Assembly: GCA_964016885.1 (NCBI GenBank)
Contig: OZ024762.1
Location: forward strand, 3,906,001-3,970,000
Reading direction: 5' to 3'
DNA: 64,000 bases
DNA from: Eledone cirrhosa
Taxonomy: Eukaryota
Numbering within the stretch: position 1 is the stretch's first letter; every line of letters starts with the position of its first letter. This document shows, one piece after another, positions 34,647 to 64,000 of the stretch. The notes under the pieces were generated by a model. The model worked only from the letters and a program-made list of their open reading frames with translations, searched no databases and was not told where the DNA came from. Both the position numbers and the translations under genes were made by a program.

Positions 34647-35944
34647 CCTATATATGTATATATATACCTATATATATATATATATACAATATATTGAGAA
34701 ACACACAGATACATGCGAACACATACATACACATGAATATATCCACATCCATCCTTGAGTTAATGGTGTTAGTCAACCTTAACCGATGTTGCTCTATGAA
34801 TAACTGGGACAAACCAATCCGAATGGATTAGACTGAACCAGTATCAGAGCTAAAAGTACATTATGAAGAGAGAAGAAACATTTAGATATACTTAGTAATA
34901 AGATGTATCATACCTAAACTGCTTCTAGATTCCTCGACTACATGTTTCTACTAAATGTTTCTTCTCTCTTCATAATGTACTATATATATATATATATATA
35001 CCTATATATATATATATACCTATATATATATATATATACCTATATATATATATATAGAAGAGGTATATATAAATGTACCTTTATATGTGTGTGTAGAGAG
35101 AAGATGTTTTGTTTAATAGACAAAGTAAGTATGTCTATATGAATGTAACAGAATGCCTTCAGTTCTCTGAATTAAAATCCTGCTGAGGTCAACTTTGCCT
35201 TTCATCCATTTGAGGTTGATAAAACAAAGTACCAGTCTAGTATTGAGGTTGATTCTTCTGTTTCTCTGGAAGAAATCTGCTGTATTCAGACCTGGAGAGG
35301 AGATGGGTCTGCCAGGTTTTAAAAAGTGCCCTAGAAATACTGTATGTCAATGTGTGGCCTGTATGACTCCCTTAGGAGTTGCAGGTCCATGCATGCATGT
35401 AACTCTCACAGTTTGGAAGTTCTGCATTCATCACATTGCTCCAGTACTCACAGCTGAGGAGTTAGTCCTGTGGTAGACCAGCGTACTATCCAGGGAGAGT
35501 CTTGTACTCTCAGACACTTAACACCAAGCAAACTGGTCATAAGCTGAGAACAGTCTTTATATATTATACTAAATTTTGGTCTAATCACATATCGATGAAG
35601 GAAATCATGGTCTTAAGATGCTTATTACCAAAATAGATAATTAGTGATTGATACTAATTACTAAGATCGATGGTTTGTATTTTTTATTTTCTGTATTAAC
35701 ATAAACATTACTATCTTGAAGTAAATATACTTATTGTTCTGTATATATATATGTATTAAATACTAGTAGTTTAAACTTATTACATATAGAAACGGGATGA
35801 AAGTAAGGTAACACGGTCGTGAAAAAGTAATTTCTTTCTGAAAATATTTCGGAGACGAAGTATAATATTGATAATCATTCGGTAGAGATCTCAACTCTCA
35901 CCATACGAAGTATATTCAGAAAGAGATATTTCTCCACGCCCTCA

Positions 35945-36009
35945 GTTATCTCGTCTTCATTCCGTTTCTATATATATATTTTTTTAATAAATAAAATTCT
36001 AACTATAAG
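35945..36009 (+). promoter_or_regulatory. Putative promoter of cassette A: upstream 25-bp motif plus TATAAG
   Basis: GTTATCTCGTCTTCATTCCGTTTCT (35945-35969) and TATAAG (36004-36009) are both conserved with near-identical spacing in paralog B (37741-37765; 37798-37803). Confidence 0.6.
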
Positions 36010-36034
36010 TATGACTAATTTACTCAGTAGAGTT

Positions 36035-36182
36035 GCGCTCTTGCGTGGCGCTGCACGTAACTTTTCGTACTTCGCTGTCGTATTTCGGTATGGCATGACC
36101 ATTCTATGTGTCTGAAGATCGAATCGTAGCGGGGGCAGCCCGGCTTTATGCTGGCCTGCGTCCCCGCCTCGCATTGAGTTTT
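36035..36182 (+). ncRNA. Unassigned structured RNA candidate, type A copy 1
   Basis: Starts 31 nt after TATAAG. Hairpins TGTCGTAT-TTCG-GTATGGCA and GCGGGG.GCAGCCCGGC-TTTAT-GCTGGCCTGC..CCCCGC; B-box-like GATCGAATC; ends in TTTT. Confidence 0.55.
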
Positions 36183-37239
36183 ACTAAAAAATTCACTGCG
36201 AGTTATCGTTTGAATTACTTGCCCCTGATTGGAACTCTTCTCGTTTGTTGTCATTCTTCTTTATTGAATTAAACTGTTAACATCGTTTGGATTTACTCGT
36301 GTAATTTGATAGAATCAGTCTGGATATTATACTAATGGTGAGAGGTATGTAATGTTTTATTTGCCGTATATACACTCACAGACATACATTATTCTATATG
36401 CCTTTCATCCTTATGGGGTCGATAAAATAAAGTACCAGTAATGCACTGGATAATTGCTGGCCTTGTGCCAAAAGTAGAAACAATTATTCTATATACAGAA
36501 AGATTCTAGAGACGTACATATTGTTTTATTTAAACCTAAATACACACACAAAACTAGATTTATATATATATAAATGTTCTTTAGCTGAGGTAAAATACCC
36601 TCTAATTTACCTAAACGAACGCTTTATTTGCCATGTATATTTTAATTCATTGCTAAACACTCGAAAATACAGTCTTAGATATATATTAACATTCTTTAGT
36701 GTATGCATTCACCTCTCTAATCCATACACTGGAAGAAACGTTTCCTATCTAGATCAATATACACATATAAAGCTACATTTATATATACACCTTCATTCTT
36801 CTAAAGAGGTATGTAATGTTTTAGTTGTCCCTATTCATCGATAAACACGTAGTTATTCCTGAGACACAAGAATATATTTCGCTACCCTTCATATACAGGA
36901 GGAATGTTAGAGACGTATATGTATAATATAACCGTCTTTTTACTAAGAATAATAACTAAAACCCCTTCATACTCAGGAAAAGTAAACATTCTATCGACAT
37001 ACACCGCCTTCTGTCTTATTCATAGTGGTACATTGTTAGAAGTAACTAACTAAGCCTTCTCTCGACACTATCATTGCATATTTTAAGATCCACTTCTTTA
37101 TATACTATATTTAGGTTTAATCAATACATATATTGATGATTGGAATCATGGTCTTAAGATTACCCAAATCGATACTAACTATTACAAATACAGATCTGTC
37201 TAAGGCTATGTTACCTACATATTAATTGTTTTGAAAAGA

Positions 37240-37325
37240 TGCATCAGTCTTCTCCTCTATGGAGCCGAAACGTGGCCCCTCACAAAGACGATTGACAGCA
37301 GAGCCCTGAGGACCATCTAAATCAT
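37240..37325 (+). mobile_element. Short RTE LINE RT C-terminal fragment (also at ~44855-44930(-) and ~58195-58270(+))
   Basis: CTTCTCCTCTATGGAGCCGAAACGTGGCCCCTCACAAAG translates to LLYGAETWPLTK. Confidence 0.65.
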
Positions 37326-37699
37326 CAGCCCACAGCCTTACTCTCGTTCAACACAGTAGCACCTGGTAGGCTCTACCCATGATGATGCCGGTCTAGATGT
37401 ACAAAATACTCGAATATAAGGTGACCCTCCTCCCTATCTTATGTCTAAGAAGTGGGCAAAAATGCGAACCTTATTTACGTAGAATTTGAAGTTGGCGAAA
37501 ATGGTCCTTGCTACAAAACTATTGACTCCCTATATAAGTCAACCCCTTACTACATATTCCCTGGCTTCTATTCGTGTATATCCCGTTATATATGTACCAA
37601 ATACTAGTATTTCCTTAATGGCTATATATCCCGTTATATATGTACCAAATACTAGTATTTCCTTAATGGCTATATATCCCGTTATATTTATATATAGAG

Positions 37700-37803
37700 A
37701 GAAACGGAAAGAAAACGAGATAACACTCGGAATATGTCGTGTTATCTCGCTTTCTTTCCGTTTCTTTTTTTTTTTAAAAAAGAAGGAAAATGTTAGCTAT
37801 AAG
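37700..37803 (+). promoter_or_regulatory. Putative promoter of cassette B: inverted pair of the upstream motif plus TATAAG
   Basis: AGAAACGGAAAGAAAACGAGATAAC (37700-37724), GTTATCTCGCTTTCTTTCCGTTTCT (37741-37765) and TATAAG (37798-37803). Confidence 0.6.
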
Positions 37804-37828
37804 TATGACTATTTGACTCTGTAGAATT

Positions 37829-37993
37829 GCGGCTTGTGCGTGGCGCTGCACGTAGCGTTTCTGGCTTCGATGTCGTACTTCGGTATGGCATGACCACTCG
37901 ATCGTGTCTGAAGTTCGAATCGTTGCGGGGTCGGCCGGGACCGTTGCAGGCCGGCTTTATGCTGGCCTGCTCTCCCGCCTCGCATGAGTTTTT
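37829..37993 (+). ncRNA. Unassigned structured RNA candidate, type B copy 1 (165 nt)
   Basis: Starts 31 nt after TATAAG. GTGCG-TGGCGC-TGCAC hairpin; ATGTCGTAC-TTCG-GTATGGCAT (cUUCGg); B box GTTCGAATC; GCAGGCCGGC-TTTAT-GCTGGCCTGC enclosed by GCGGGG/TCCCGC; ends in TTTTT. Confidence 0.62.
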
Positions 37994-39689
37994 GCCAAAC
38001 AATTTGACGAGAGTTATCTCCCTTTGATTTGAGTTATTTGCCCTTTGTTGACATTGAACTACTTCCGGTTTGTGGAACTCTTCTTCCTTTGTTGTCATTT
38101 CTTTTCAGTGTATTGAAGCTGTAACATTATTCTATTTACTCTGGGACTATTAACGATATCTGTTTGGATTTTACGTTCGTGTAAAGAGGTATGTAAAGTT
38201 TTATTCACACTCACGGATATTATTGAGACACAAAAATACATTTCACTATCTTGGAAATATACATACATTTAATTCTTCAATATAAATACATTCTTGTAGT
38301 GTTTTAGTTGCCATGTCTTTTAAATTTATTCTAAACACTCTTCACAGAACTAAACCTCCTTCCGAGAAACAATATATACACGCAGCTACCTCTTCTAACT
38401 AAACATACATGTTACTTTCCTCTCTATACCTTATACCATCGTAATTTCTACGTCGAGTTACCTCGTCATCACCACCTTTACTCCAACTCAGCATTCTCTC
38501 TTGCACACATCATATCAACTATATATTTATATTATAATCGTATCTCTATTACACCTTCTCTGCATATACTTACTTAGAAGAAAGGTATATCTCCTCATTA
38601 TACACAGTATCCGGAGCTATATAAGAAACTGTAGTATATAGAATACAGACCCTCTCTCTATACATAAACACACTTCGAAGTATTGTATATATGCAGCATC
38701 TATATACACACAAGGCAAAGTTAAAACCCTCTTCTCTACTACTTTTCCCGAGGATACTTACATAAAACTCAGGATATTTTATCAAGGCATCTATTGTTTG
38801 TATGTAGAAGACATTATATTCAGTATCCTTCTCAATAGAGGAAAAAAACTCCCCATACATACAGTTTTTTATAGAATACACTGCCTTGTTATATAAATAT
38901 TGTACACATGTGGGTATATAATACACTTCTATATATATATAGAAACTTACTACTAGATATTGTGTGTACACAGCAAAGAATCTACTTTTTGTATGTAGAG
39001 ACTCCTCTGTAACATCTAGAAGGCTTATATTTACTATCCTTCTCTATAATAAAAAAAAAACCCATATATACAGTAATACCTTATCTAGAGGCATATAAGA
39101 AACTGTATTTCACAGCCCTATACCCACTCTCCTAAGAAACTAAACTGTTCATGATAAAGAGGTTTAATTTCTGCCTCTAGAAAAGTATTGGTGTTAGAGC
39201 TGTGTAATCTGGATTGTTTTTATTAATACCCTCTGCTTCTTTCCAGGTATGTTGAAGATCTCCGCCAGCTCACCTGAGTGTGTAAATACACACAGTCGTC
39301 TCAACAAATAAAATAACTCCAACAACAAAATGTAGTTTATTTATTGATCTTTATTTCACATTTTCATTTCTTATATATATACACAGGTAGTATCTTACGT
39401 GTAGATCGTTTAACTTTCATTCATATTAAATATATAGGAATTAACAGCTGTGTATATATAACTAGTGGATTGTTAAACACATGCCTAGAGATAAAAAGGT
39501 ATTAACATGCGAGAGAATTCAATTATTATGTAATTAGTGAGAAACATCCTTCTTGAAAGAAGTGTATATATAGAATAGATTAATTAATGTGTATGTACAC
39601 TATAGAATCCCAGTAAGAAACAAGTGTGGTGCTATAGAAAAGTTTCTTTGAGAATGGAAACTGTCTAAGGCGGGTAAAATTCCCGAGAT

Positions 39690-39832
39690 CCATGGACGAG
39701 TTCTCTCCAGCGGTCTCTGTCCCTCATTATCGCTGCCATGTCCTGCATCTCCAACAGACCAGTGTCTGTCCTTAGGGCATCAACATACGTTAACCTTGGT
39801 CTTCCTCTTCTAGTGTGTCCATGTAGGGGCTC
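39690..39832 (-). mobile_element. RTE LINE 3' end fragment (mirror at ~63420-63562 +)
   Basis: HGHTRRGRPRLTYVDALRTDTGLLEMQDMAAIMRDRDRWRELVHGSRE. Confidence 0.7.
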
Positions 39833-40343
39833 CCAAACAGTATATAATACAGTAATCCTAGCAAGTTTATGTGTATATAGATATTCTATATCTCCTGTAA
39901 GATATCTATACAGGGTTATGTGGATATTCTATATCTCTCTCATACTTACCAGTAAGTATATAGGTATTAATAAAGAAGTTTCATATTATAAACATTTATA
40001 ATGTGTATATATACAGTATTCTAGTAAGTTTATTTCCTTCTGTATATAGAATAAATTTGTATTCTATATCTCTCCCAGTATGTATATAGGAATAGAAGTA
40101 TGAACTCAGTTCGAAACATCCTTCATGAAAGAAATGTATCTAATGCAGTATTCTAGTGAGGCCATTTCTTTCTGTATGTATACATATGCCTAGAGATAGA
40201 AGGGTGTTAATATGTATGGATTCTATAGAAGTAAGTGTATATATATATATACACACAGTTTTAAGGTAATAGTATCCTATAGAATACACATACTTATATA
40301 CATCTAGAGAAGAAAGTTTAACTCCTTAGCTATATTTATATAA

Positions 40344-42452
40344 ACATACATATATGTGTATATATACATATACATATGTATGTATATATACATACATATG
40401 TATATATACATACATATGTATGTATATATACATATGTATGTATATATACATATGTATGTATACATACGTATGTATATACGTATGTATATATACATATGTA
40501 TGTATATATACATACGTATGTATATATACGTATGTATATATACATATGTATGTATATATACATACGTATGTATGTATACATACGTATGTATATAAACATA
40601 CGTATGTATATATACACATACGTATGTATGTTTATATACATACGTATATATGTACATACATACGTATGTAAATACATACATATGTATGTACATATACATA
40701 CATATGTATGTACATATACATACGTATGTAAATACATACGTATGTATTATACATACGTATGTATGTGTACATACATACGTATGTATGTACATACGTATGT
40801 ATGTATGTAAATACATACATATGTATGTATGTATACATACGTACGTATGTATACATACATACGTACGTATGTATATATACATACGTACGTATGTATACAT
40901 ACATACGTACGTATGTATATATACATACGTACGTATGTATACATACATACGTATGTATGTATACATACGTATGTATATAAACATACGTATGTATTTATGT
41001 ACGTATACATACGTACGTATGTTTATATACATACGTATGTATATGTACATACGTATGTATGTACATATACATACGTATGTAAATACATACGTATGTATGT
41101 ATACATACGTATGTAAATACATACGTATGTATAATACATACGTATGTATGTACATACATATGTATGTATACGTACATAAATACATACGTATGTATATAAA
41201 CATATGTACGTATACATACGTACGTATGTTTATATACATACGTATGTTTATATACATACGTATGTATATGTACATACGTATGTATATGTACATACATACG
41301 TATGTATGTATACATACGTACGTAAATACATACGTATGTATATGTACATACATACGTATGTATGTATACATACGTATGTATGTAAATACATACGTATGTA
41401 CATACATACGTATGTATGTATACATACGTATGTATATGTACATACATACGTATGTATATATACATACGTATGTATACATACATACGTATGTATGTACATA
41501 TACATACGTATGTATACATACATACGTATGTATGTACATATACATACGTATGTACATATACATACGTATGTATATAAACATACGTACGTATGTATACGTA
41601 CATAAATACATACGTATGTATTTATGTACGTATACATACGTACGTATGTATATATACATACATATGTATGTACATATACATACGTATGTAAATACATACG
41701 TATGTATTATACATACGTATGTATTTACATACGTACATATACATACATACGTATGTATATGTACATACATACGTTTGTATGTACATATACATACGTATGT
41801 ATGTATATGTACATACATACGTATGTATGTACATATACATACGTATGTATATAAACATACGTACATAAATACATACGTATACATACGTATGTTTATATAC
41901 ATACGTATGTATATGTACATACATAAACATACGTATGTATGTACATATACATACGTATGTATATGTACATACATATACGTATGTATGTATACATACGTAT
42001 GTATATATATATACATACATATGTATATAAACATACGTATGTACATACATACGTATGTATGTATATAAACATACGTATGTAAATACATACGTATGTATAT
42101 ATACATATGTATATAAACATACGTATGTATACATACGTATGTATATATATACACGTATGTATATACATACGTATGTATATATACATACGTATGTATATAA
42201 ACATACGTATGTAGTATACGTATCTATATATATACATATGTATGTATATATATATACGTATATATATACATACATATATGTATATATATGTATGTATATA
42301 CACATACATATATGTATGTATATATATATGTATATATATATACATACATGTGTATGTATATATATATACGTATGTATACATACATATGTATGTATATATA
42401 CATATATATGTATGTATATATACATACATATGTATGTATATATACATACATC
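40344..42452. repeat. Self-complementary TACATACGTATG(TA) satellite
   Basis: ~2.1 kb built from the palindromic core ATACATACGTATGTAT, with CpG in most units; flanked by a 27-bp direct repeat. Confidence 0.95.
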
Positions 42453-44327
42453 TTTAATTCCTTAGCTATATTTATATAATACAGTAGTCTAGAGATATAA
42501 GGGTATTAATATGTCTGTAGGTTGTTGTCTTTATATCTGTGTAGTGTAACTTCTAAATTTACAATGAAGATATGATTTATATACACAAAAGTGTTTATAT
42601 GGAGTATGCCTGTCTAGAGGAGAATAGGGTATTGATGTATCCTTTAAAGAAAAGGGTAACTGTGTACATAGGGTTCTACATACTGTACTCTATTGAACCC
42701 AACTTCACTATATAATGGAGGTACTTCTTCCAATATAGAGAAGAAGGTGTATTATAGACATGAAGTAAGCTTTGTGTGTCATATTAAATACAGTTTTTCT
42801 ATATATGTGTGTATGTAAAGAACATTAAGTTTCTTTGTATTTATACAGTTAGCTCTCTTGCTTCTTAGGAAGCATGTACACATTCTACTATGAGATGCTT
42901 ATACACAACTAGAAGAACAATAGTAGTAGTTTCCTAAGAGACGTATGTGTAGTATCTAGCGAGGATGTATTGATATGTATGTACAGATCAAAACCTCTTA
43001 TATATGTATGATGTTCACTTCCAGGTTTCTACATACATGTGTATAATATAAAGAGACACACACAATGTGGGTTTAGATATATTCTATAGAATACAGTTTC
43101 TTATATACAGACATGTCTACATTGATGTTATTTACCTGTATATAGAGATGGCTTGTTTCTAATAGGTGTATATCAAGGAAATAATTTATATAATATGAAT
43201 CTAGTATACAGTGACAGAAGGTTTTTGTCTTCCTACAGTGTAAGAGGTGTCTAGTGTGTGTATATATACAGGGAGTAAATAATAAGGCAACAAAGGAAAA
43301 TACTGGTTTATTCTTTTATTTCACAATTTATTTACCTTTCTTCTTGAGATAGGGTTGTAGTAGTCTCCAGGTCTGGTGCTGTTCCTTAGGAATATAAAAT
43401 AGGTTAGTTGTGTATATATAAAGATTTAGTTTTGTATCTAGTGAAGAACGTTTATATATGGATGATGTAGCTATCAAGCAGGTGAGGATGCTAGAAGTAG
43501 TAGTAGTGAGTCTTACGGCAGAGTAATGGAGCTACCATGCTTCGTTAGATATAACTGTATGGTTTAGCTTCTATATTAATATGTCTAGAGGAGGTTTAGT
43601 TTCATGTCTATTATTCCAGTATGAACAAGTTTGTATATTGCGCCTCATAAGTATCTGTTATGATAGAAGGGAGACCGTTTATATATGAATATAGCTTCAT
43701 GTGTACGTATGTCCCCAGGATTCTTCCTCTACAAGGTTTAGAATAAATTTACGGCTAATACATAAATATGCCTGAAGTGTTTGTGTATTTACGTGAAAAA
43801 GTGTCTTCTTGTATATAGAATATCTGTGTGTGTATTCAGGTATAAGGTTTATATACAGAAGATAAAATGTGTATAGAGAGGAAGCTTGGTTATATTTCCT
43901 TACAAGTATGTATATAGTATCGAGAGAAGATTTAGTTGTAACATGTTAGAAGAGGTGTGTATATACAGATCATGGTTAGTTTTGTTTCATAATAGAAGAG
44001 GGTAACATGTATGTTTAGTTAGAAGAGGTAGCTGCGTGTATATATTTAGTTTTGTTTCTTTAAAAGACATGGCAACTTACTTTTGTGTCTCAATAATGTG
44101 TGTATATATACGGCAAATAAAACTTTACATACCTCTTTACACGAACGTAATATCCAAACCGGTATCGTTAATAGTCCCAGAGTAAATAGAATAATGTTAC
44201 AGCTTCAATACACTGAAAAGAAATGACAACAAAGGAAGAAGAGTTCCACAAACCGGAAGTAGTTCAATGTAAACAAAGGGCAAATAATTCAAATTAAGGG
44301 GAGATAACTCTCGTCAAATTGTTTGGC

Positions 44328-44492
44328 AAAAACTCATGCGAGGCGGGAGAGCAGGCCAGCATAAAGCCGGCCTGCAACGGTCCCGGCCGACCCCGCAACG
44401 ATTCGAACTTCAGACACGATCGAGTGGTCATGCCATACCGAAGTACGACATCGAAGCCAGAAACGCTACGTGCAGCGCCACGCACAAGCCGC
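44328..44492 (-). ncRNA. Unassigned structured RNA candidate, type B copy 2
   Basis: Reverse complement of 37829-37993; CTTATA at 44518-44523. Confidence 0.62.
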
Positions 44493-45989
44493 AATTCTAC
44501 AGAGTCAAATAGTCATACTTATAGCTAACATTTTCCTTCTTTTTTTAAAAAAAAAGAAACGGAAAGAAAGCAAGATAACACGACATATTCCGAGTGTTCT
44601 CTCGTTTTCTTTCCGTTTCTCTCTATATATAAATATAACGGGATATACACGAATAGAAGCCAGGGAATATGTAGTAAGGGGTTGACTTATATAGGGAGTC
44701 AATAGTTTGACCATTTTTGCCAACTTCTCAGACATAAGATAGGGAGGAGGGTCACCTTATATTCGAGTACATCTATTCTTGTTAGACTAGACCGGCATCA
44801 TCATGGGTAGAGCCGACCAGGTGCTACTGCGTTGAACGAGACTAAGGCTGTGATGGTCCTCAGGGCTCTGCTGTCAATCGTCTTTGTGAGGGGCCACGTT
44901 TCGGCTCCATAGAGGAGAAGACTGATGCATCTTTTCAAAACAATTAATATGTAGGTAACATAGCCTTAGACAGATCTGTATTTGTAATAGTTAGTATCGA
45001 TTTGGGTAATCTTAAGACCATGATTCCAATCATCAATATATGTATTGATTAAACCTAAATATAGTATATAAAGTAGTGGATCTTAAAATATGCAATGATA
45101 GTGTCGAGAGAAGGCTTAGTTAGTTACTTCTAACAATGTACCACTATGAATAAGACAGAAGGCGGTGTATGTAGATAGAATGTTTACTTTTCCTGAGTAT
45201 GAAGGGGTTTTAGTTATTATTCTTAGTAAAAAGACGGTTATATTATACATATACGTCTCTAACATTCCTCCTGTATATGAAGAGTAGCGAAATGTATTCT
45301 TGTGTCTCAGGAATAACTACGTGTTTATCGATGAATTTAAGGGACAACTAAAACATTACATACCTCTTTAGAAGAATGAAGGTGTATATATAAATGTAGC
45401 TTTATATGTGTATATTGATCTAGATAGGAAACGTTTCTTCCAGTGTATGGATTAGAGAGGTGAATGCATACACTAAAGAATGTTAATATATATCTAAGAC
45501 TGTATTTTCTAGTGTTTAGCAATGAATTAAAATATACATGGCAAATAAAGCGTTCGTTTAGGTAAATTAGAGGGTATTTTACCTCAGCTAAAGAACATTT
45601 ATATATATATAAATCTAGTTTTGTGTGTGTATTTAGGTTTAAATAAAACAATATGTACGTCTCTAGAATCTTTCTGTATATAGAATAATTGTTTCTACTT
45701 TTGGCACAAGGCCAGCAATTATCCAGTGCATTACTGGTACTTTATTTTATCGACCCTATAAGGATGAAAGGCATATAGAATAATGTATGTCTGTGAGTGG
45801 ATATACGGAAAATAAAACATTACATACCTCTCACCATTAGTATAATATCCAGACTGATTCTATCAAATTACACGAGTAAATCCAAACGATGTTAACAGTT
45901 TAATTCAATAAAGAAGAATGACAACAAACAAGAATAGTTCCAATCAGGGGCAAGTAATTCAAACGATAACTCTCGGCGAATTTTTTAGT

Positions 45990-46139
45990 AAAACTCAATG
46001 CGAGGCGGGGACGCAGGCCAGCATAAAGCCGGGGCTGCCGCCGCAACGATTCGATCTTCAGACACATAGAATGGTCATGCCATACCGAAGTACGACAGCG
46101 AAGCCCGAAACGTTACGTGCAGCGCCATGCACAGAGCGC
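45990..46139 (-). ncRNA. Unassigned structured RNA candidate, type A copy 2
   Basis: Reverse-complement homolog of 36035-36182 with GTGCA/TGCAC and cUUCGg hairpins intact. Confidence 0.58.
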
Positions 46140-47825
46140 AACTCTACTGAGTAAATTAGTCATACTTATAGTTAGAATTTTATTTATTAAAAAAATATAT
46201 ATATAGAAACGGAATGAAGACGAGATAACTGAGGGCGTGGAGAAATATCTCTTTCTGAATATACTTCGTATGGTGAGAGTTGAGATCTCTACCGAATAAT
46301 TATCAATATTATACTTCGTCTCCGAAATATTTTTAGAAAGAAATTACTTTTTCACGACCGTGTTACCTTACTTCCATCCCGTTTCTATATGTAATAAGTT
46401 TAAACTACTAGTATTTAATACATATATATATACAGAATAATAAGTATATTTACTTCAAGATAGTAATGTTTATGTTAATACAGAAAATAAAAAATGCAAA
46501 CCATCGATCTTAGTAATTAGTATCAATCACTAATTATCTATTTTGGTAATAAGCATCTTAAGACCATGATTTCCTTCATCGATATGTGATTAGACCAAAA
46601 TTTAGTATAATATATAAAGACTGTTCTCAGCTTATGACCAGTTTGCTTGGTGTTAAGTGTCTGAGAGTACAAGACTCTCCCTGGATAGTACGCTGGTCTA
46701 CCACAGGACTAACTCCTCAGCTGTGAGTACTGGAGCAATGTGATGAATGCAGAACTTCCAAATTGTGAGAGTTACATGTATGCATGGACCTGCAACTCCT
46801 AAGGGAGTCATACAGGCCACACATTGACATACAGTATTTCTAGGGCACTTTTTAAAACCTGGCAGACCCATCTCCTCTCCAGGTCTGAATACAGCAGATT
46901 TCTTCCAGAGAAACAGAAGAATCAACCTCAATACTAGACTGGTACTTTGTTTTATCAACCTCAAATGGATGAAAAGCAAAGTTGACCTCAGCAGGATTTT
47001 AATTCAGAGAACTGAAGGCATTCTGTTACATTCATATATACATACTTACTTTGTCTAATAAACAAAACATCTTTTCTCTCTACACACATAACATATAAAG
47101 CTACATTTATATAAACCTCTTCTAAGAAATTAAACCTACTCTAGACTTACACATAGATACAGTTATATATAAATACTTACCTTGTCAAATAAACACAACT
47201 AAATCTTCTCTAGTCAGACACACAAAGCTACATTTATATAAACATTCTTCTCTACAAAAGAGGATCAGCTGAAAAGCTCATAGGCTGGCTTTGAAGAAGT
47301 GATGCTAGAACTGCGAGATATTGTGGTTAGGTTCATTATCATAGGACTTGGTGGAGCAATCAAAATTCACTGCCAACTCATGTACAACTTTATGATGTTC
47401 TTGATTCATCGGTGAAAAAGAATGACTCTGATAGTTCTGTTTCATGTGAGGAAGACAAAAGGAAACCTTCAGAGTGTGCATTGAGCGATATGGGATATTT
47501 CTAGAATGTAACTAATGCCAACTTGAATCATCCTTGGACATCATCATACATAGTATATATATATATAGTGTGTTTAGTACAGTGTAGTTGTAGCTAACTA
47601 GGTATTTGGTTTTATGAAATGAAAGGGACAAAAAAACAAACTATATATATACACTGATACTTCAATGTGTTATAAGCAATCCAATACCACTGTTGGATAG
47701 ATAGAGTGCTTAATCCTGCTTACACTAAAGTTTATGGATTAAGGTGGTGCAAACACAACACTTAAATAAAGGAAACAATATATGTCCATAGTACAGAAAA
47801 TTCTTATAATATATATATATATATA

Positions 47826-50729: not shown

Positions 50730-50800
50730 TTTCTTAGTAATTATTTGTATATACTTACATTGTTTGCATATAAGGTAGGCTTAAAAGTTCATAGGCTCAC

Positions 50801-52138: not shown

Positions 52139-52179
52139 TATATATATACATGTATATATACACATGTATATATATACAT

Positions 52180-52330: not shown

Positions 52331-52504
52331 TAAAATGTCTAGCAACAAGGGCGGTGCCCCAGCATGGCCTCAGCCGGATGGCTGAAACAGGTAAAAGAGT
52401 ATATGTGTATATATATATATACATGTATATATATGGATATATACATGTATATTTATATATATATAAATGTATATATATATATATATATCTATATATCTAT
52501 ATAA

Positions 52505-52551
<47 letters not shown>

Positions 52552-53904
52552 GATGTGTTCACCTATTAAAAATCCACAAAATTCTTTTAATATTGTCGTT
52601 TTCGTCCATAGCAAGTGTTGTTTCGAAATAATTTTTGCACCCATTTTTGCGATTAAGTAAAGACAGAGTTATCGTTCTTGAGATTTCCTCCTGGTGAAAT
52701 TTAAGGAACTGATGTCGCTAGAGCGTCAACTTTTTTACCTGCCCCGTTGCATCATGGGAGACGTTAGGGTTGATTTTTTTTAAAAATAAAAAGCGAGTTT
52801 TTTAATTTACTCCTTGCCACCGTGGTTGTTGTTTGATATAAGTAAATAAATAAAAGAATTAATTCCATCCCACACCTCCCTGTAGTCGGAATATCTAATT
52901 ACCATGGTGTCGGGAGTGGTTAATCTAAACAAAGGGCAATATGTAATCGCTACACCGGCCTCATAATAATTACTATTGTTCTCCTATTTTTCTTCAAAGT
53001 GATTTCGCTTCTTTATTTCATAGAATCATGGCTAATTAATTTAAAGCCACTCACTGACGATCTCCGGCCTCTCACCCTCAGATGTTCTGTCTTCTACAAC
53101 CCCTTTTAAAACAATGAAAGGTGCATTCAACGATGTAGATGTGGGTACCTTGATAATCATATAAACACAGGATGGTCACGGCAGGTATACCATCGATTAC
53201 ACACATGTCGGGTCATCTTGTCTTGCTCGTTCAAGACCTGTGAATAAAAGTAAACAACAGCAACACGTCTCTACGTCTACGCTCCACTTGCTAGAAATAG
53301 AAGCCAGGTTTCCTAAGAATTACGGAGGTGAATTAGCTGTGACACATGTAAATACAATCTTTTATATTTTATCTGTGTAGGAAGATATTAACAATGTTTT
53401 TACTTTTGATTATGTATATGTAAATATATGTCTTGATCGCTCATGTCTGACTTGTCAATGAAAGTAAACAACAGCTACCTTATGGAATTTTCACCATTTA
53501 AACCCCAACAAAATGCATACAGACATATATAAGTGTATATATATATATATATATACTCGAAATTATATATATATACGCCAAATTTTTACACGGGGGACAA
53601 ACGGTTCCCATAACCTGAATAGGTCCTCTGAGAACCGACTTATGTATATAGAATCAATGAGATTCCAGCGTTGACCAATATGTGTATATATGACTATCTA
53701 AAACTACATCTTCTAATGTGTCCTTCATTATTTTAAAACGTGGCGAGCGATAAATATTTGGCTGCTATTTCCAGCAACAATTCTAATGTCACTTTTGTGT
53801 GAATATCTAGTAATTAGTATATTCTCTTCTAAATCTTTCTTATTTGTTGGGGCTTGTTTAAGACGTCAGCCCCCGTCGGGCTTGACCCAGCAGAAGTACG
53901 AAGG

Positions 53905-54190
53905 TTGGCTGACTATGAAGGACTGATGCTAGAGCTGGGAAATCTTGCATGAATTAATTTCAACTCTTCTTATTAATAACTGCATTGTTTCTTTTCAAGT
54001 AAACTGACATCTGACTGTTGAAAGAGGACTTCAAATGTAATTAGTAATGACCTCTTGAAAATGGACAGCATTTGGCATCGTGGTATTATCAAGTCCCTGT
54101 AGAAAAGGGGTTTATCCCCCAAGGACATTCATGTTGACAAGGTTGCTACATTAAGGGATGACACTCCAGCTTTATCAACAATTCAACAGG
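53905..54190 (+). mobile_element. mariner transposon 5' fragment with degenerate transposase N-terminus
   Basis: ATG at 54061 gives MDSIWHRGIIKSL*KRGLSPKDIHVDKVATLRDDTPALSTIQ, resembling the mariner HTH start (RxVIKFL..KGLSPKDIHxDM..TLGDxAPxxSTV). Confidence 0.75.
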
Positions 54191-54231
54191 CTCTGGTCCA
54201 CAATTATTGTCTCTCCTCCTTCTGCACATTA

Positions 54232-54425
54232 TACCTCTACTACAATGGTCTCTGCTCCTCCCCAGCCCATAAATATGATGTTCCCTCTCTACCTCTACTA
54301 CAATGGTCTCTGCTCCTCCCCAACCCTAAATATGCTGTTCCCTCTCTACCTCTACTACAGTGGTCTCTGCTTCTCCCCAGCCCCTAAATATGCCGTTCCC
54401 TCTGCCTATTCTATCTCTACTACTG
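54232..54425. repeat. 59-bp tandem repeat (~3 copies; mirror at ~48695-48887)
   Basis: ACCTCTACTACAATGGTCTCTGCTCCTCCCCA.CCC.TAAATATG..GTTCCCTCT at 54232, 54291 and ~54349. Confidence 0.8.
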
Positions 54426-56979
54426 CAGTCCCTGCTCCTCAGAGGTTGCTGGTCTCCACTGAAACACTCATCAGTTATGTTGAAAGCCTCTGGTCTATAT
54501 AGTCACTACATTGAAGACATCCAACTCTGTTTTCTTCAAACTGACCATAACTTAATTCCTCTGCTGCTGTAGCTGAAACAATGGTTAGATTTTTCACTCA
54601 CCATGGATACCTTTCCATCCTGTTCTAAGTTACCCTTACCAGTGTCTGTGGAGTCCATTGCTCTACCAATCTTCCTCCTTCACACGACAATCACCTTCTG
54701 TGTTGCCTTCTGTTATTTTTCCCCTTTCAAAAAACCTACAACCATAAGAAACTCCTTGTCCACAGTTCCTGAAAAAGTTTCGGGATAAAAGAACTGGTGT
54801 AAACCTCCTTTGAGATGTAACCTTGTAGGAGGTCAGTGTATATATATATATATGTAAGTGTAAAGAGAGCTGGATGATGATCAACGAGATTACAGGAAGG
54901 AAGAGAGGGAGTTTGAGTTAGATCTGGGGATAAGAAGAGGCTGGACAATTTTAAGACCCTACTAGGAGAGCCACCTTCGACAGCCCAGAATACCAGGGAG
55001 ATCAGACAGCCGTTTGAGGAACTGGATATTGAGACAGGACCTTCGCCAGAGAGGGGCTTCAGCGAACCAAGAAGATCAAGACCTATGGAGAGGCATCAAA
55101 AGTGATGAAGAGGTGTGATTTTGATGATATCATCCTGGAGTTCTATAACCAGGCACTGGAGAAAGTTGCCCTTGATCACTAACATCATCTCAGTACCAAA
55201 GAAGGGAGATCTTTCTAACATGAACAACTACAGGGGAATCTCATTGATGTCACTTGTGGCAAAGACCCTCAACAGAATCCAGCCCGAGATGTTTATATAT
55301 ATATATATATTATAAGAATTTTCTGTACTATGGACATATATTGTTTCCTTTATTTAAGTGTTGTGTTTGCACCACCTTAATCCATAAACTTTAGTGTAAG
55401 CAGGATTAAGCACTCTATCTATCCAACAGTGGTATTGGATTGCTTATAACACATTGAAGTATCAGTGTATATATATAGTTTGTTTTTTTGTCCCTTTCAT
55501 TTCATAAAACCAAATACCTAGTTAGCTACAACTACACTGTACTAAACACACTATATATATATATACTATGTATGATGATGTCCAAGGATGATTCAAGTTG
55601 GCATTAGTTACATTCTAGAAATATCCCATATCGCTCAATGCACACTCTGAAGGTTTCCTTTTGTCTTCCTCACATGAAACAGAACTATCAGAGTCATTCT
55701 TTTTCACCGATGAATCAAGAACATCATAAAGTTGTACATGAGTTGGCAGTGAATTTTGATTGCTCCACCAAGTCCTATGATAATGAACCTAACCACAATA
55801 TCTCGCAGTTCTAGCATCACTTCTTCAAAGCCAGCCTATGAGCTTTTCAGCTGATCCTCTTTTGTAGAGAAGAATGTTTATATAAATGTAGCTTTGTGTG
55901 TCTGACTAGAGAAGATTTAGTTGTGTTTATTTGACAAGGTAAGTATTTATATATAACTGTATCTATGTGTAAGTCTAGAGTAGGTTTAATTTCTTAGAAG
56001 AGGTTTATATAAATGTAGCTTTATATGTTATGTGTGTAGAGAGAAAAGATGTTTTGTTTATTAGACAAAGTAAGTATGTATATATGAATGTAACAGAATG
56101 CCTTCAGTTCTCTGAATTAAAATCCTGCTGAGGTCAACTTTGCTTTTCATCCATTTGAGGTTGATAAAACAAAGTACCAGTCTAGTATTGAGGTTGATTC
56201 TTCTGTTTCTCTGGAAGAAATCTGCTGTATTCAGACCTGGAGAGGAGATGGGTCTGCCAGGTTTTAAAAAGTGCCCTAGAAATACTGTATGTCAATGTGT
56301 GGCCTGTATGACTCCCTTAGGAGTTGCAGGTCCATGCATACATGTAACTCTCACAATTTGGAAGTTCTGCATTCATCACATTGCTCCAGTACTCACAGCT
56401 GAGGAGTTAGTCCTGTGGTAGACCAGCGTACTATCCAGGGAGAGTCTTGTACTCTCAGACACTTAACACCAAGCAAACTGGTCATAAGCTGAGAACAGTC
56501 TTTATATATTATACTAAATTTTGGTCTAATCACATATAGATGAAGGAAATCATGGTCTTAAGATGCTTATTACCAAAATAGATAATTAGTGATTGATACT
56601 AATTACTAAGATCGATGGTTTGCATTTTTTATTTTCTGTATTAACATAAACATTACTATCTTGAAGTAAATATACTTATTATTCTGTATATATATATGTA
56701 TTAAATACTAGTAGTTTAAACTTATTACATATAGAAACGGGATGGAAGTAAGGTAACACGGTCGTGAAAAAGTAATTTCTTTCTAAAAATATTTCGGAGA
56801 CGAAGTATAATATTGATAATTATTCGGTAGAGATCTCAACTCTCACCATACGAAGTATATTCAGAAAGAGATATTTCTCCACGCCCTCAGTTATCTCGTC
56901 TTCATTCCGTTTCTATATATATATTTTTTTAATAAATAAAATTCTAACTATAAGTATGACTAATTTACTCAGTAGAGTT

Positions 56980-57129
56980 GCGCTCTGTGCATGGCGCTGC
57001 ACGTAACGTTTCGGGCTTCGCTGTCGTACTTCGGTATGGCATGACCATTCTATGTGTCTGAAGGTCGAATCGTTGCGGCGGCAGCCCCGGCTTTATGCTG
57101 GCCTGCGTCCCCGCCTCGCATTGAGTTTT
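56980..57129 (+). ncRNA. Unassigned structured RNA candidate, type A copy 3
   Basis: TATAAG at 56949-56954; GTGCA-TGGCGC-TGCAC; TGTCGTAC-TTCG-GTATGGCA; GGTCGAATC; ends in TTTT. Confidence 0.58.
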
Positions 57130-58626
57130 ACTAAAAAATTCGCCGAGAGTTATCGTTTGAATTACTTGCCCCTGATTGGAACTATTCTTGTTTGTTGTCA
57201 TTCTTCTTTATTGAATTAAACTGTTAACATCGTTTGGATTTACTCGTGTAATTTGATAGAATCAGTCTGGATATTATACTAATGGTGAGAGGTATGTAAT
57301 GTTTTATTTTCCGTATATCCACTCACAGACATACATTATTCTATATGCCTTTCATCCTTATAGGGTCGATAAAATAAAGTACCAGTAATGCACTGGATAA
57401 TTGCTGGCCTTGTGCCAAAAGTAGAAACAATTATTCTATATACAGAAAGATTCTAGAGACGTACATATTGTTTTATTTAAACCTAAATACACACACAAAA
57501 CTAGATTTATATATATATAAATGTTCTTTAGCTGAGGTAAAATACCCTCTAATTTACCTAAACGAACGCTTTATTTGCCATGTATATTTTAATTCATTGC
57601 TAAACACTAGAAAATACAGTCTTAGATATATATTAACATTCTTTAGTGTATGCATTCACCTCTCTAATCCATACACTGGAAGAAACGTTTCCTATCTAGA
57701 TCAATATACACATATAAAGCTACATTTATATATACACCTTCATTCTTCTAAAGAGGTATGTAATGTTTTAGTTGTCCCTTAAATTCATCGATAAACACGT
57801 AGTTATTCCTGAGACACAAGAATACATTTCGCTACCCTTCATATACAGGAGGAATGTTAGAGACGTATATGTATAATATAACCGTCTTTTTACTAAGAAT
57901 AATAACTAAAACCCCTTCATACTCAGGAAAAGTAAACATTCTATCTACATACACCGCCTTCTGTCTTATTCATAGTGGTACATTGTTAGAAGTAACTAAC
58001 TAAGCCTTCTCTCGACACTATCATTGCATATTTTAAGATCCACTTCTTTATATACTATATTTAGGTTTAATCAATACATATATTGATGATTGGAATCATG
58101 GTCTTAAGATTACCCAAATCGATACTAACTATTACAAATACAGATCTGTCTAAGGCTATGTTACCTACATATTAATTGTTTTGAAAAGATGCATCAGTCT
58201 TCTCCTCTATGGAGCCGAAACGTGGCCCCTCACAAAGACGATTGACAGCAGAGCCCTGAGGACCATCACAGCCTTAGTCTCGTTCAACGCAGTAGCACCT
58301 GGTCGGCTCTACCCATGATGATGCCGGTCTAGTCTAACAAGAATAGATGTACTCGAATATAAGGTGACCCTCCTCCCTATCTTATGTCTGAGAAGTTGGC
58401 AAAAATGGTCAAACTATTGACTCCCTATATAAGTCAACCCCTTACTACATATTCCCTGGCTTCTATTCGTGTATATCCCGTTATATTTATATATAGAGAG
58501 AAACGGAAAGAAAACGAGAGAACACTCGGAATATGTCGTGTTATCTTGCTTTCTTTCCGTTTCTTTTTTTTTAAAAAAAGAAGGAAAATGTTAGCTATAA
58601 GTATGACTATTTGACTCTGTAGAATT

Positions 58627-58791
58627 GCGGCTTGTGCGTGGCGCTGCACGTAGCGTTTCTGGCTTCGATGTCGTACTTCGGTATGGCATGACCACTCGAT
58701 CGTGTCTGAAGTTCGAATCGTTGCGGGGTCGGCCGGGACCGTTGCAGGCCGGCTTTATGCTGGCCTGCTCTCCCGCCTCGCATGAGTTTTT
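58627..58791 (+). ncRNA. Unassigned structured RNA candidate, type B copy 3
   Basis: Same sequence as 37829-37993 by eye, with the same upstream motif and TATAAG. Confidence 0.62.
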
Positions 58792-60667
58792 GCCAAACAA
58801 TTTGACGAGAGTTATCTCCCCTTAATTTGAATTATTTGCCCTTTGTTTACATTGAACTACTTCCGGTTTGTGGAACTCTTCTTCCTTTGTTGTCATTTCT
58901 TTTCAGTGTATTGAAGCTGTAACATTATTCTATTTACTCTGGGACTATTAACGATACCGGTTTGGATATTACGTTCGTGTAAAGAGGTATGTAAAGTTTT
59001 ATTTGCCGTATATATACACACATTATTGAGACACAAAAGTAAGTTGCCATGTCTTTTAAAGAAACAAAACTAAATATATACACGCAGCTACCTCTTCTAA
59101 CTAAACATACATGTTACCCTCCTCTATTATGAAACAAAACTAACCATGATCTGTATATACACACCTCTTCTAACATGTTACAACTAAATCTTCTCTCGAT
59201 ACTATATACATACTTGTAAGGAAATATAACCAAGCTTCCTCTCTATACACATTTTATCTTCTGTATATAAACCTTATACCTGAATACACACACAGATATT
59301 CTATATACAAGAAGACACTTTTTCACGTAAATACACAAACACTTCAGGCATATTTATGTATTAGCCGTAAATTTATTCTAAACCTTGTAGAGGAAGAATC
59401 CTGGGGACATACGTACACATGAAGCTATATTCATATATAAACGGTCTCCCTTCTATCATAACAGATACTTATGAGGCGCAATATACAAACTTGTTCATAC
59501 TGGAATAATAGACATGAAACTAAACCTCCTCTAGACATATTAATATAGAAGCTAAACCATACAGTTATATCTAACGAAGCATGGTAGCTCCATTACTCTG
59601 CCGTAAGACTCACTACTACTACTTCTAGCATCCTCACCTGCTTGATAGCTACATCATCCATATATAAACGTTCTTCACTAGATACAAAACTAAATCTTTA
59701 TATATACACAACTAACCTATTTTATATTCCTAAGGAACAGCACCAGACCTGGAGACTACTACAACCCTATCTCAAGAAGAAAGGTAAATAAATTGTGAAA
59801 TAAAAGAATAAACCAGTATTTTCCTTTGTTGCCTTATTATCTACTCCCTGTATATATACACACACTAGACACCTCTTACACTGTAGGAAGACAAAAACCT
59901 TCTGTCACTGTATACTAGATTCATATTATATAAATTATTTCCTTGATATACACCTATTAGAAACAAGCCATCTCTATATACAGGTAAATAACATCAATGT
60001 AGACATGTCTGTATATAAGAAACTGTATTCTATAGAATATATCTAAACCCACATTGTGTGTGTCTCTTTATATTATACACATGTATGTAGAAACCTGGAA
60101 GTGAACATCATACATATATAAGAGGTTTTGATCTGTACATACATATCAATACATCCTCGCTAGATACTACACATACGTCTCTTAGGAAACTACTACTATT
60201 GTTCTTCTAGTTGTGTATAAGCATCTCATAGTAGAATGTGTACATGCTTCCTAAGAAGCAAGAGAGCTAACTGTATAAATACAAAGAAACTTAATGTTCT
60301 TTACATACACACATATATAGAAAAACTGTATTTAATATGACACACAAAGCTTACTTCATGTCTATAATACACCTTCTTCTCTATATTGGAAGAAGTACCT
60401 CCATTATATATTGAAGTTGGGTTCAATAGAGTACAGTATGTAGAACCCTATGTACACAGTTACCCTTTTCTTTAAAGGATACATCAATACCCTGTTCTCC
60501 TCTAGACAGGCATACTCCATATAAACACTTTTGTGTATATAAATCATATCTTCATTGTAAATTTAGAAGTTACACTACACAGATATAAAGACAACAACCT
60601 ACAGACATATTAATACCCTTATATCTCTAGACTACTGTATTATATAAATATAGCTAAGGAATTAAAG

Positions 60668-62910
60668 ATGTATGTATATATACATACATATGTATATATA
60701 CATACATATATATGTATATATACATACATATATATGTATATATACATACATATATATGTATATATACATACATATGTATGTATACATACGTATATATACA
60801 TATGTATATATATACATACACATATAAATGTATATATATACATACACATGTATGTATATATATATACATATATATATGTATGTGTATATACATACATATA
60901 TATACATATATGTATGTATATATATATACATACATATGTATATATATAGATACGTATACTACATACGTATGTTTATATACATACGTATGTATATATACAT
61001 ACGTATGTATATATACATACGTATGTATATATACATACGTATGTATATACATACGTGTATATATATACATATGTATACATACGTATGTATGTATGTATAT
61101 ATATATACATACGTATGTATACATACGTATGTTTATATACATACGTATGTATATATACATACGTATGTATACATACGTATGTATTTACATACGTATGTTT
61201 ATGTACATACATACGTATGTTTATGTATGTACATATACATACGTATGTATATAAACATACGTATGTATTTATGTACGTATGTTTATATACATACGTATGT
61301 AAATACATACGTATGTATAATACATACGTATGTATATGTACATACATATGTATGTAAATATACATACGTACATAAATACATACGTATGTATTTATGTACG
61401 TATGTTTATATACATACGTATGTACATACATACGTATGTATGTACATATACATACGTATGTAAATACATACGTATGTATAATACATACGTATGTATATGT
61501 ACATACATATGTATGTAAATATACATACGTACGTATGTATACGTACATAAATACATACGTATGTATTTATGTACGTATACATACGTACGTATGTATACGT
61601 ACATACGTATGTATATGTACATACGTATGTATATGTACATACATACGTATGTATGTATACATACGTATGTATACATACATACGTATGTATAATACATACG
61701 TATGTATGTACATACGTATGTATTTACATACATACGTATGTATACATACATACGTATGTATTATACATACGTATGTATATAAACATACGTATGTTTATAT
61801 ACATACGTACGTATGTATATATACATACATATGTATGTACATATACATACGTATGTATTTACATACATACGTATGTAAATACATACGTATGTATTTACAT
61901 ACATACGTATGTATACATACATACGTATGTATATGTACATACATACGTATGTATGTACATATACATACGTATGTATTTACATACATACGTATGTAAATAC
62001 ATACGTATGTATTTACATACATACGTATGTATACATACATACGTATGTATATGTACATACATACGTATGTATGTACATATACATACGTACATAAATACAT
62101 ATACATACGTATGTATTTACATACGTATGTATATGTACATACATACGTATGTATGTACATATACATACGTATGTATACGTACATAAATACATATGTATGT
62201 ACATATACATACGTATGTATTTACATACATACGTATGTAAATACATACGTATGTATTTACATACATACGTATGTATTTACATACGTATGTATACATACAT
62301 ACGTATGTATATGTACATACATACGTATGTATGTACATATACATACGTATGTATACGTACATAAATACATATGTATGTACATATACATACGTATGTATTT
62401 ACATACGTATGTATATGTACATACATATGTATTTATGTACATATACATACGTATGTATTTACATACGTATGTATACATACATACGTATGTATTTACATAC
62501 GTATGTATATGTACATACATACGTATGTATGTACATATACATACGTATGTATATAAACATACGTACGTATGTATACGTACATAAATACATACGTATGTTT
62601 ATATACATACATACGTATACATACATACGTACGTATGTATACATACGTATGTATTTACATACGTATGTATGTATATGTACATACATATGTATGTATTTAC
62701 ATACGTATGTATGTACATATATACGTATGTGTATATATACATACGTATGTTTATATACATACGTATGTATACATACATACGTATGTATATATACATACGT
62801 ATGTATACATACGTATGTATATATACATACATACATACATATGTATGTATATATACATACATATGTATATATATATAGATATGTATATATACATACACAT
62901 ATATGTATGT
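60668..62910. repeat. TACATACGTATG satellite, right-arm copy
   Basis: Same core as 40344-42452 but ~133 bp longer (mirror sum shifts from 103119 to 103252) and with a different unit order. Confidence 0.95.
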
Positions 62911-64000
62911 TTATATAAATATAGCTAAGGAGTTAAACTTTCTTCTCTAGATGTATATAAGTATGTGTATTCTATAGGATACTATTACCTTAAAACTGTG
63001 TGTATATATATATACACTTACTTCTATAGAATCCATACATATTAACACCCTTCTATCTCTAGGCATATGTATACATACAGAAAGAAATGGCCTCACTAGA
63101 ATACTGCATTAGATACATTTCTTTCATGAAGGATGTTTCGAACTGAGTTCATACTTCTATTCCTATATACATACTGGGAGAGATATAGAATACAAATTTA
63201 TTCTATATACAGAAGGAAATAAACTTACTAGAATACTGTCTATATACACATTATAAATGTTTATAATATGAAACTTCTTTATTAATACCTATATACTTAC
63301 TGGTAAGTATGAGAGAGATATAGAATATCCACATAACCCTGTATAGATATCTTACAGGAGATATAGAATATCTATATACACATAAACTTGCTAGGATTAC
63401 TGTATTATATACTGTTTGGGAGCCCCTACATGGACACACTAGAAGAGGAAGACCAAGGTTAACGTATGTTGATGCCCTAAGGACAGACACTGGTCTGTTG
63501 GAGATGCAGGACATGGCAGCGATAATGAGGGACAGAGACCGCTGGAGAGAACTCGTCCATGGATCTCGGGAATTTTACCCGCCTTAGACAGTTTCCATTC
63601 TCAAAGAAACTTTTCTATAGCACCACACTTGTTTCTTACTGGGATTCTATAGTGTACATACACATTAATTAATCTATTCTATATATACACTTCTTTCAAG
63701 AAGGATGTTTCTCACTAATTACATAATAATTGAATTCTCTCGCATGTTAATACCTTTTTATCTCTAGGCATGTGTTTAACAATCCACTAGTTATATATAC
63801 ACAGCTGTTAATTCCTATATATTTAATATGAATGAAAGTTAAACGATCTACACGTAAGATACTACCTGTGTATATATATAAGAAATGAAAATGTGAAATA
63901 AAGATCAATAAATAAACTACATTTTGTTGTTGGAGTTATTTTATTTGTTGAGACGACTGTGTGTATTTACACACTCAGGTGAGCTGGCGGAGATCTTCAA

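What the first reader, a model, noticed from the sequence alone, without database searches (positions are those of the whole stretch)
35055..64000. Palindrome within a palindrome amplifying the RNA cassettes
Seen: module M (35055-38415) and inverted M' (44002-47124) flank a satellite-containing spacer. From 39252 at the latest, the region is mirrored across a 2870-bp spacer (50126-52995), giving M'' (55995-59117). M' and M'' differ by only scattered substitutions (e.g. GAAGATCG vs GAAGGTCG in the type-A B box), while M has extra indels, so the two inversions differ in age. Inference: if the right arm continues, a fourth module lies at about 64.8-68.2 kb, giving 8 cassettes. The layout resembles ampliconic palindromes maintained by arm-to-arm gene conversion, yet here it holds no evident protein gene.
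Basis: partly seen in the sequence, partly recalled or inferred. Interest (0 to 1): 0.75.

Follow-up and report, generated by a model that had tools for sequence, protein, structure and literature searches.

The report
Self-mirroring repeat family carrying small-RNA genes
This nested mirror-image stretch is one of dozens of copies of a non-coding repeat family on a few small chromosomes of an animal genome; its arms were likely re-copied from each other by folding back at a central DNA hairpin, and it carries predicted small-RNA genes that match no catalogued family.

Summary
The nested palindrome is real in the assembly, but it is not a one-off amplicon. The right arm ends about 2.9 kb beyond the window and adds one cassette, so there are 7, not 8. 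The unit is a dispersed family: 121 cassettes in 38 clusters on three ~30-Mb chromosomes and three scaffolds, 30 clusters with a face-to-face pair. Six loci are full 20-45-kb palindromes; five have a 447-bp hairpin plus an 88-bp satellite at the axis. Both inversions are inherited family architecture. What is local is arm identity: 77 of 82 locus-private substitutions are shared by both arms in four palindromes, and kb-size insertions and deletions are mirrored. One older palindrome has drifted evenly to 2.2%, and no GC bias was found. That fits episodic whole-arm re-copying at the hairpin better than steady gene conversion. No target-site duplication and no protein gene of its own were found. 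The ~165-nt polymerase III-type cassette is conserved against its flanks (96% vs 74-79%), is not vault, SRP or 7SK RNA, and has no expression data.

The parts
35055..38415 (+). Module M: chimeric outer-left module (inner-type part 35055-37107 joined to the mirror of the outer right arm from 37108); begins at a (TA)n tract
36003..36182 (+). Cassette type A, copy 1: TATA box, putative A box, B box at 36114, T-run; predicted polymerase III unit
   Evidence: fold z -1.85; expression untested
37797..37992 (+). Cassette type B, copy 1: TATA box, putative A box, B box at 37910, UUCG hairpin, terminal stem, T-run; preceded by a ~70-bp DNA hairpin (37699-37766) and a 48-bp tandem repeat
   Evidence: (z -4.92)
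38416..44001 (.). Inner spacer: s1, self-complementary TATA-type satellite (40331-42451), s2
   Evidence: 91% of satellite 12-mers have their reverse complement in the array
39667..39841 (.). ~175-bp high-copy repeat fragment present in both arms of this locus and missing at the two other loci printed (RTE-like label recalled, not tested)
44002..47124 (-). Module M' with cassette B (44329-44524) and cassette A (45990-46171)
47125..50125 (.). Inner arm segments i1 and i2; single diverged copies of the 88-bp satellite motif at 47293 and 49186
50283..50729 (.). 447-bp MITE-like hairpin: the symmetry axis of the family
   Evidence: predicted DNA fold -201 kcal/mol
50800..52138 (+). 88-bp satellite, 15.2 copies; its mirror partner and adjacent segments are deleted on the left side of this locus
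52181..52995 (+). Segments e2 and e (e starts with an older copy of the hairpin's left half), set between (TA)n tracts
52996..64000 (-). Outer right arm, mirror of 50125 back to 39252; continues past the window to 66883 with a seventh cassette (type B, TATA at 65445, minus strand)
55995..59117 (+). Module M'' with cassette A (56948-57129) and cassette B (58595-58790)

Best explanation
This is one copy of a dispersed, non-coding palindrome family whose arms meet at a 447-bp hairpin and an 88-bp satellite and are likely re-copied whole from each other by a strand folding back at that hairpin, multiplying a predicted polymerase III small-RNA gene as a by-product. Shown: the family, both axes, per-locus arm identity, mirrored insertions and deletions, ragged ends without target-site duplication. 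Inferred: a break or stalled fork at the hairpin lets the new strand fold back and copy one arm into the other (foldback or template switching as in ODIRA); the self-complementary TATA and (TA)n tracts act as the second turning point; spread to new loci is by recombination of such two-ended products with related repeats, not by a transposase. The inner face-to-face cassette pair is the older layer; the doubled A+B module and the hairpin core were added later in one lineage.
For: Family: 84 exact 17-mer hits on C22, C23, C25 and two scaffolds, 0 in the control; 121 cassettes in 38 clusters, 30 with a convergent pair 2.5-16 kb apart, in 1.65 Mb fetched around hits. Axis: 5 of 6 full palindromes have the hairpin in the centre; in 7 of the 17 hairpin copies printed the left flank mirrors the right flank up to the hairpin edge; a 28-mer spanning hairpin end and flank gives 87 hits on C22, C23, C24, C26, by my count 27 as a pair on both sides of one hairpin. 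The same core without cassettes forms arrays that flip strand at the hairpin and at (TA)n tracts or satellite joints; in 3 of 6 stretches checked other flank sequence is mirrored around it (370-480 bp, 94-98.5%). Arm copying: arms are sisters at 5 of 6 loci; locus-private substitutions shared by both arms are 24 of 28 here, 14 of 14, 20 of 21 and 19 of 19 at three other loci; one LINE insertion (RVT_1) sits at the same base in both arms of two loci, with a 1.1-kb deletion in both arms of one, and is absent from both arms here. Whole-arm pattern: locus 14380 has 137 substitutions spread evenly, longest identical run 298 bp, P=0.16 against random; no GC bias, 31:38 against 85:144, p=0.26. No direct repeat at 14 of 14 mirror ends; no element-encoded ORF. 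Foldback at inverted repeats is an established route (PMC10622511 abstract; PMC10766186 passages).
Against: Locus 7350 is patchy (longest identical run 443 bp, P=0.0005; arms not sisters), which looks like conversion tracts or ectopic exchange. Locus 17580 has identical arms but no hairpin at its centre, and this window's centre is asymmetric, so the last copying here may not have started at the hairpin. Two long hairpin arrays show little or no mirrored flank (185 bp; 500 bp at 87%). The GC-bias test is weak and leans slightly the way conversion predicts (odds 1.38). At three loci identity is confined to ~0.5-1.5 kb around the cassettes, which foldback at the hairpin does not explain. No read spans an arm-axis-arm junction, and no extrachromosomal form was seen.
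Confidence: 0.55

Rival explanations
1. The palindromes were copied to new loci as whole segmental duplications and their arms are kept alike by steady arm-to-arm gene conversion, as in mammalian X and Y palindromes.
For: Within-locus divergence is far below between-locus divergence (0-0.13% against medians of 1.5-2.9% for the four young loci); patchy identity at locus 7350; cassette-limited identity at three loci; a flipped inner spacer at C22:12.32 Mb shows crossing over between inverted cassettes.
Against: Even 2.2% drift with no identical tracts at locus 14380; kb-size indels mirrored; no significant GC bias; a fixed hairpin axis and strand-flipping arrays are not predicted.
Confidence: 0.25
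2. It is a giant non-autonomous foldback transposon: long modular inverted ends with internal tandem repeats, moved by a transposase encoded elsewhere.
For: Architecture like foldback elements (PMC4079207 passages): inverted modular arms, internal tandem repeats, non-coding middle, many rearranged forms; dispersed copies 92-98% alike.
Against: No target-site duplication at 14 of 14 mirror ends; outer ends are ragged; hits are confined to five small chromosomes and a few scaffolds; no transposase ORF seen in the fetched loci.
Confidence: 0.1
3. The near-identical arms are assembly or amplification artefacts made at the hairpin.
For: Three loci have 0.0% arm divergence over ~6 kb; one has a 200-N gap; hairpins can seed chimeric reads (own knowledge); no spanning read was available.
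Against: Arms here differ at 20 scattered sites and in satellite length, the centre is asymmetric and both flanks are unrelated; two loci have arms 2-3.5% apart; satellite arrays differ in length between arms at the identical-arm loci; contigs of two samples and raw reads of a third study lie on the module, though this shows presence, not arrangement.
Confidence: 0.1

Closest known systems
Large palindromes of mammalian X and Y chromosomes (PMC8327919, passages read)
   Same: Arms of 8 kb or more, >99% arm identity within a locus, unstable and invertible spacers.
   Different: Those are single loci mostly holding protein genes on sex chromosomes; this is one non-coding family repeated at dozens of loci on several chromosomes with a shared hairpin axis.
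Tribolium macro-dyad satellites (PMC13081366, passages read)
   Same: Satellite arrays that flip strand at conserved inversion sites with hairpin potential, spanning kb to tens of kb.
   Different: Here the inversion site is a separate 447-bp hairpin and the mirror extends for 10-20 kb into non-satellite arms that carry RNA cassettes; no link to centromeres was tested.
Foldback transposons such as Tetris (PMC4079207, passages read)
   Same: Long modular inverted arms with internal tandem repeats that also grow into satellite arrays; non-coding middle.
   Different: No target-site duplications, no fixed outer ends, arms ten times longer.
ODIRA and foldback inverted duplications (PMC10766186 passages; PMC10622511 abstract and outline)
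   Same: Alternating orientation of copies, junctions at inverted repeats, secondary deletion of the centre.
   Different: Those are sporadic events at short chance repeats; here one hairpin is reused in a heritable family.
Primate snaR genes (PMC3337139, passages read)
   Same: Structured polymerase III small-RNA unit spread with its flanks by DNA-level duplication, partly inverted, with two subtypes.
   Different: snaR derives from Alu, is shown to be expressed, and evolves faster than its flanks; this cassette has no known ancestor, is better kept than its flanks, and is not shown to be expressed.

Membership tests
Ampliconic sex-chromosome palindrome | Arms >=8 kb and >99% alike | tested here: met
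   ~13-kb arms, 99.4-100% masked
Ampliconic sex-chromosome palindrome | Confined to a sex chromosome | tested here: not met
   Copies on C22, C23, C25; which contig is sex-linked is unknown
Ampliconic sex-chromosome palindrome | Protein-coding gene in arms or spacer (usual, not universal) | tested here: not met
   No element ORF
Ampliconic sex-chromosome palindrome | Ongoing GC-biased conversion | tested here: inconclusive
   p=0.26; one locus patchy, one even
Foldback transposon | Long modular inverted repeats with internal tandem repeats | tested here: met
Foldback transposon | 8-10-bp target-site duplication | tested here: not met
   0 of 14 mirror ends
Foldback transposon | Fixed termini shared with an autonomous partner | tested here: not met
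   Ragged outer ends; no genome-wide transposase search was run
Macro-dyad satellite | Strand flips at conserved inversion sites | tested here: met
   (for the 88-bp core only)
Macro-dyad satellite | Megabase (peri)centromeric arrays on all chromosomes | tested here: not met
   Arrays of 1-65 kb on four chromosomes
Vault RNA | Rfam RF00006 match; box A followed by the conserved motif; 80-150 nt (PMC8824774 passages) | tested here: not met
   No hit at E<=10; canonical cluster on C3; best local alignment p=0.02 uncorrected, 1 of 12 tests
Vault RNA | Stem joining 5' and 3' ends, internal A and B boxes | tested here: inconclusive
   Predicted; no compensatory change
SRP (7SL) or 7SK RNA | Rfam match or sequence similarity to the genome's own genes | tested here: not met
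   Canonical genes on C12 and C2; no similarity
tRNA or SINE | Cloverleaf; or copies without upstream flank and with target duplications | tested here: not met
   ARAGORN 0; copies keep the TATA box and upstream flank
Polymerase III type-2 small RNA with upstream TATA (snaR-like) | Transcript made by polymerase III | not testable with these tools
   Motifs only

The most novel reading that the evidence does not exclude
The family is a protein-free, hairpin-ended DNA element that copies itself through a two-ended foldback (dog-bone) intermediate, re-mirrors whatever lies next to its hairpin, re-enters the genome without a transposase, and carries at its inverted ends a conserved, uncatalogued ~165-nt polymerase III RNA whose face-to-face transcription helps trigger the process.
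Probability: 0.12. Interest if true: 0.85.

Novelty: new variant of a known kind. Interest (0 to 1): 0.52.

Why it matters
It gives six natural replicates of one 20-45-kb palindrome at different ages (0 to 3.5% arm divergence) in one genome. That makes an open question testable: are large palindromes kept by steady conversion or remade in single foldback events at a fixed axis? It also points to a structured small-RNA gene candidate that is absent from Rfam, kept better than its flanks, present in a second species, and amplified to over 120 copies.

Tried and rejected
Eight cassettes: rejected, 7. tRNA or Rfam family: none. Vault, SRP, 7SK identity: rejected; a likeness of the 5' end to the SRP Alu domain was my recalled lead and failed (p>=0.33). 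Covariation: 0 of 34 pairs with a change on both sides, no better than shuffles; the 35 rows were picked from 76 distinct bodies, are closely related and are poorly aligned at the 3' end for type A. Hidden transposase, integrase or virus gene: no ORF other than inserted LINE pieces and host genes. Target-site duplications: none. Fixed outer end at 66883: rejected, other copies run on. Expression: no RNA holder listed. Read depth as copy number: contig depth was ~200-220 on single-per-module segments (32 copies fetched), but the tool states it is no copy number and a single-copy baseline was not obtained, because the flank chosen proved repetitive. Organism B's contigs leave most of the module uncovered; this shows nothing about absence. 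Logan contigs drop rare alleles, so arm-specific sites could not be tested. The covariance model could not be run on the genome; a DNA search scored only 40 of 222 candidates, so counts are lower bounds. The bacterial promoter scan does not apply. Literature: ten searches found no description of this family; one search returned mostly papers on mites; an Octopus vulgaris repeat annotation had 0 occurrences of 'palindrom', 'foldback' or 'satellite' in its main text (supplements not seen and may list the repeat).
Full report
Observation. The outer mirror runs 39252-50125 against 64000-52996 and module M matches M' and M'' at 95%. Masked, the outer arms are 99.4-100% alike. Control sequence of 272 kb has nothing comparable. 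The window is G000:C23:3906001-3970000 in a 3.0-Gb genome. That it is an octopus is my inference from recalled features (the SINE, TA-rich repeats, zinc-finger ORFs); no call names it.

Beyond the window. The right arm continues to extended position 66883 but holds one cassette only. Seven TATA boxes are found: 36003, 37797, 56948, 58595 on plus; 44514, 46161, 65445 on minus. The usual outer end of the family is a single-cassette module; the full M at the left is the exception. Its part from 37108 mirrors the right arm, while 35055-37107 is of the inner type and starts at a (TA)n tract. M is 2.21% from M' and 2.19% from a copy at 17.6 Mb, so it is best read as a recombinant, not as an older local inversion.

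The family. A 2.4-kb query hit dozens of places on C22, C23 and C25 (40 of 8301 candidates scored). A 17-mer from the cassette gave 84 exact hits. In 1.65 Mb fetched around hits there are 121 cassettes in 38 clusters; 30 clusters hold a plus-then-minus pair 2.5-16 kb apart. Painting the loci with window segments shows one order of parts throughout: outer B cassette, spacer with TATA satellite, inverted B and A cassettes, inner arm, 88-bp satellite, hairpin. Six loci carry this twice as a full palindrome (this one and C23 at 7.36, 9.37, 11.78, 14.38 and 17.59 Mb); many carry one arm or fragments. Older clusters on C22 and at C23:0.86-1.74 Mb share only the cassette region, yet are also face-to-face pairs. 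Outer ends are ragged and none of 14 mirror ends has a direct repeat. Long ORFs in the loci are inserted LINE pieces, host exons or repeat read-through.

The axis. At four other palindromes the centre is satellite-minus, hairpin, satellite-plus; this window has lost the left satellite, and the 17.59-Mb locus has no hairpin. In 7 of 17 printed hairpin copies the left flank is the mirror of the right flank up to the hairpin edge. The core also exists without cassettes as arrays that reverse strand at each hairpin and again at (TA)n tracts or satellite joints. A junction 28-mer has 87 hits on C22, C23, C24 and C26 only. Three of six such stretches have other flank sequence mirrored around them; two long arrays show little of this. 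The left end of the 9.37-Mb palindrome lies inside a relative of the hairpin's left end.

How arms stay alike. Arms are sisters at 5 of 6 loci. In a 24-row alignment of the ~6-kb inner block, substitutions private to a locus are shared by both arms in 24 of 28, 14 of 14, 20 of 21 and 19 of 19 cases at four loci, but 10 of 64 and 6 of 61 at the two older ones (sites near gaps or clustered changes were dropped). A LINE sits at the same base in both arms at 9.37 Mb (2944 bp each) and 11.78 Mb (1825 and 1827 bp) and in neither arm here. So arms were copied from each other after the loci split. The 14.38-Mb arms have drifted evenly (P=0.16), the 7.36-Mb arms are patchy (P=0.0005), and GC bias is not significant. 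I read this as episodic whole-arm copying started at the hairpin, with some conversion and ectopic exchange on top. The foldback step is inferred from yeast and human work (PMC10622511, abstract and outline; PMC10766186, passages), not shown.

The cassette. Each has a TATA box, a putative A box, a B box and a T-run (motif labels from own knowledge). Type B folds well (z -4.92), type A weakly (z -1.85). Against two old C22 copies the RNA part is 96% identical while downstream flanks are 74-79% with many gaps; the 150 bp upstream are 87-92% (a third comparison gave 91%, a fourth was mis-anchored and is ignored). One 275-base contig of a second organism lies on cassette B with 9 other letters and 3 gaps at depth 3.3; a single low-depth contig is weak support. 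There is no covariation. It is not tRNA, vault, SRP or 7SK RNA: those have their own loci on C3, C12 and C2. Conservation could reflect selection or conversion centred on the cassette. Expression is untested.

Comparison and verdict. It works like a foldback or ODIRA product and looks like a foldback transposon or a Tribolium macro-dyad satellite (PMC4079207 and PMC13081366, passages), but fails the target-site and fixed-end tests for the former. It shares arm identity with X and Y palindromes (PMC8327919, passages) but is neither single-locus nor coding. The cargo is closest to snaR in its mode of spread (PMC3337139, passages). An earlier AI note on the 11.78-Mb locus reached the same hairpin reading; it is not independent evidence. 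Other unchecked notes report face-to-face polymerase III units of other families in this genome. New variant of a known kind; interest 0.52.

Noticed in passing
G000:C3:221.18-221.25 Mb (L161-L166): Tandem cluster of at least 14 vault RNA genes over the Rfam cut-off, in two sequence types.
   Followed up: partly
G000:C12:42.10-42.13 Mb (L187-L189): Tandem array of at least 20 SRP RNA genes about 1.3 kb apart; a single 7SK hit on C2.
   Followed up: partly
G000:C23:22.127-22.186 Mb; C26:19.92-19.96 Mb; C24:4.38 and 5.92 Mb: Arrays of the 88-bp satellite that reverse strand at each hairpin and again at (TA)n tracts or satellite joints.
   Followed up: yes
L011:2674-2849 (and its mirror at C23:11.807 Mb): A B cassette with an internal fold-back inversion of its own middle, present in both arms of that palindrome.
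   Followed up: partly
G000:C23:10.37-10.53 Mb: At least four direct copies of a ~28-kb block that each include a truncated arm of the family; two compared at 97-99.9%.
   Followed up: partly
window 22132-23025 (+): 298-aa open frame matching MFS_1 (E 5e-17): a host transporter exon 12 kb left of the element.
   Followed up: partly
L003:106-870 (-): Leucine-rich-repeat open frame about 17 kb right of the element's end.
   Followed up: no
window 33330-34030: Unique GC-richer stretch with a TGCGCATGCGCA palindrome near 33770, possibly a host promoter about 1.3 kb from the element (seen; motif reading recalled).
   Followed up: no
L064:2198-2398; G000:C23:5207776 and 5607996: A third, more diverged cassette type outside the main arms.
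   Followed up: partly
window 11159-11276, 13216-13498, 16307-16712, 20950-21236: Small self-inverted elements in the left half of the window.
   Followed up: no
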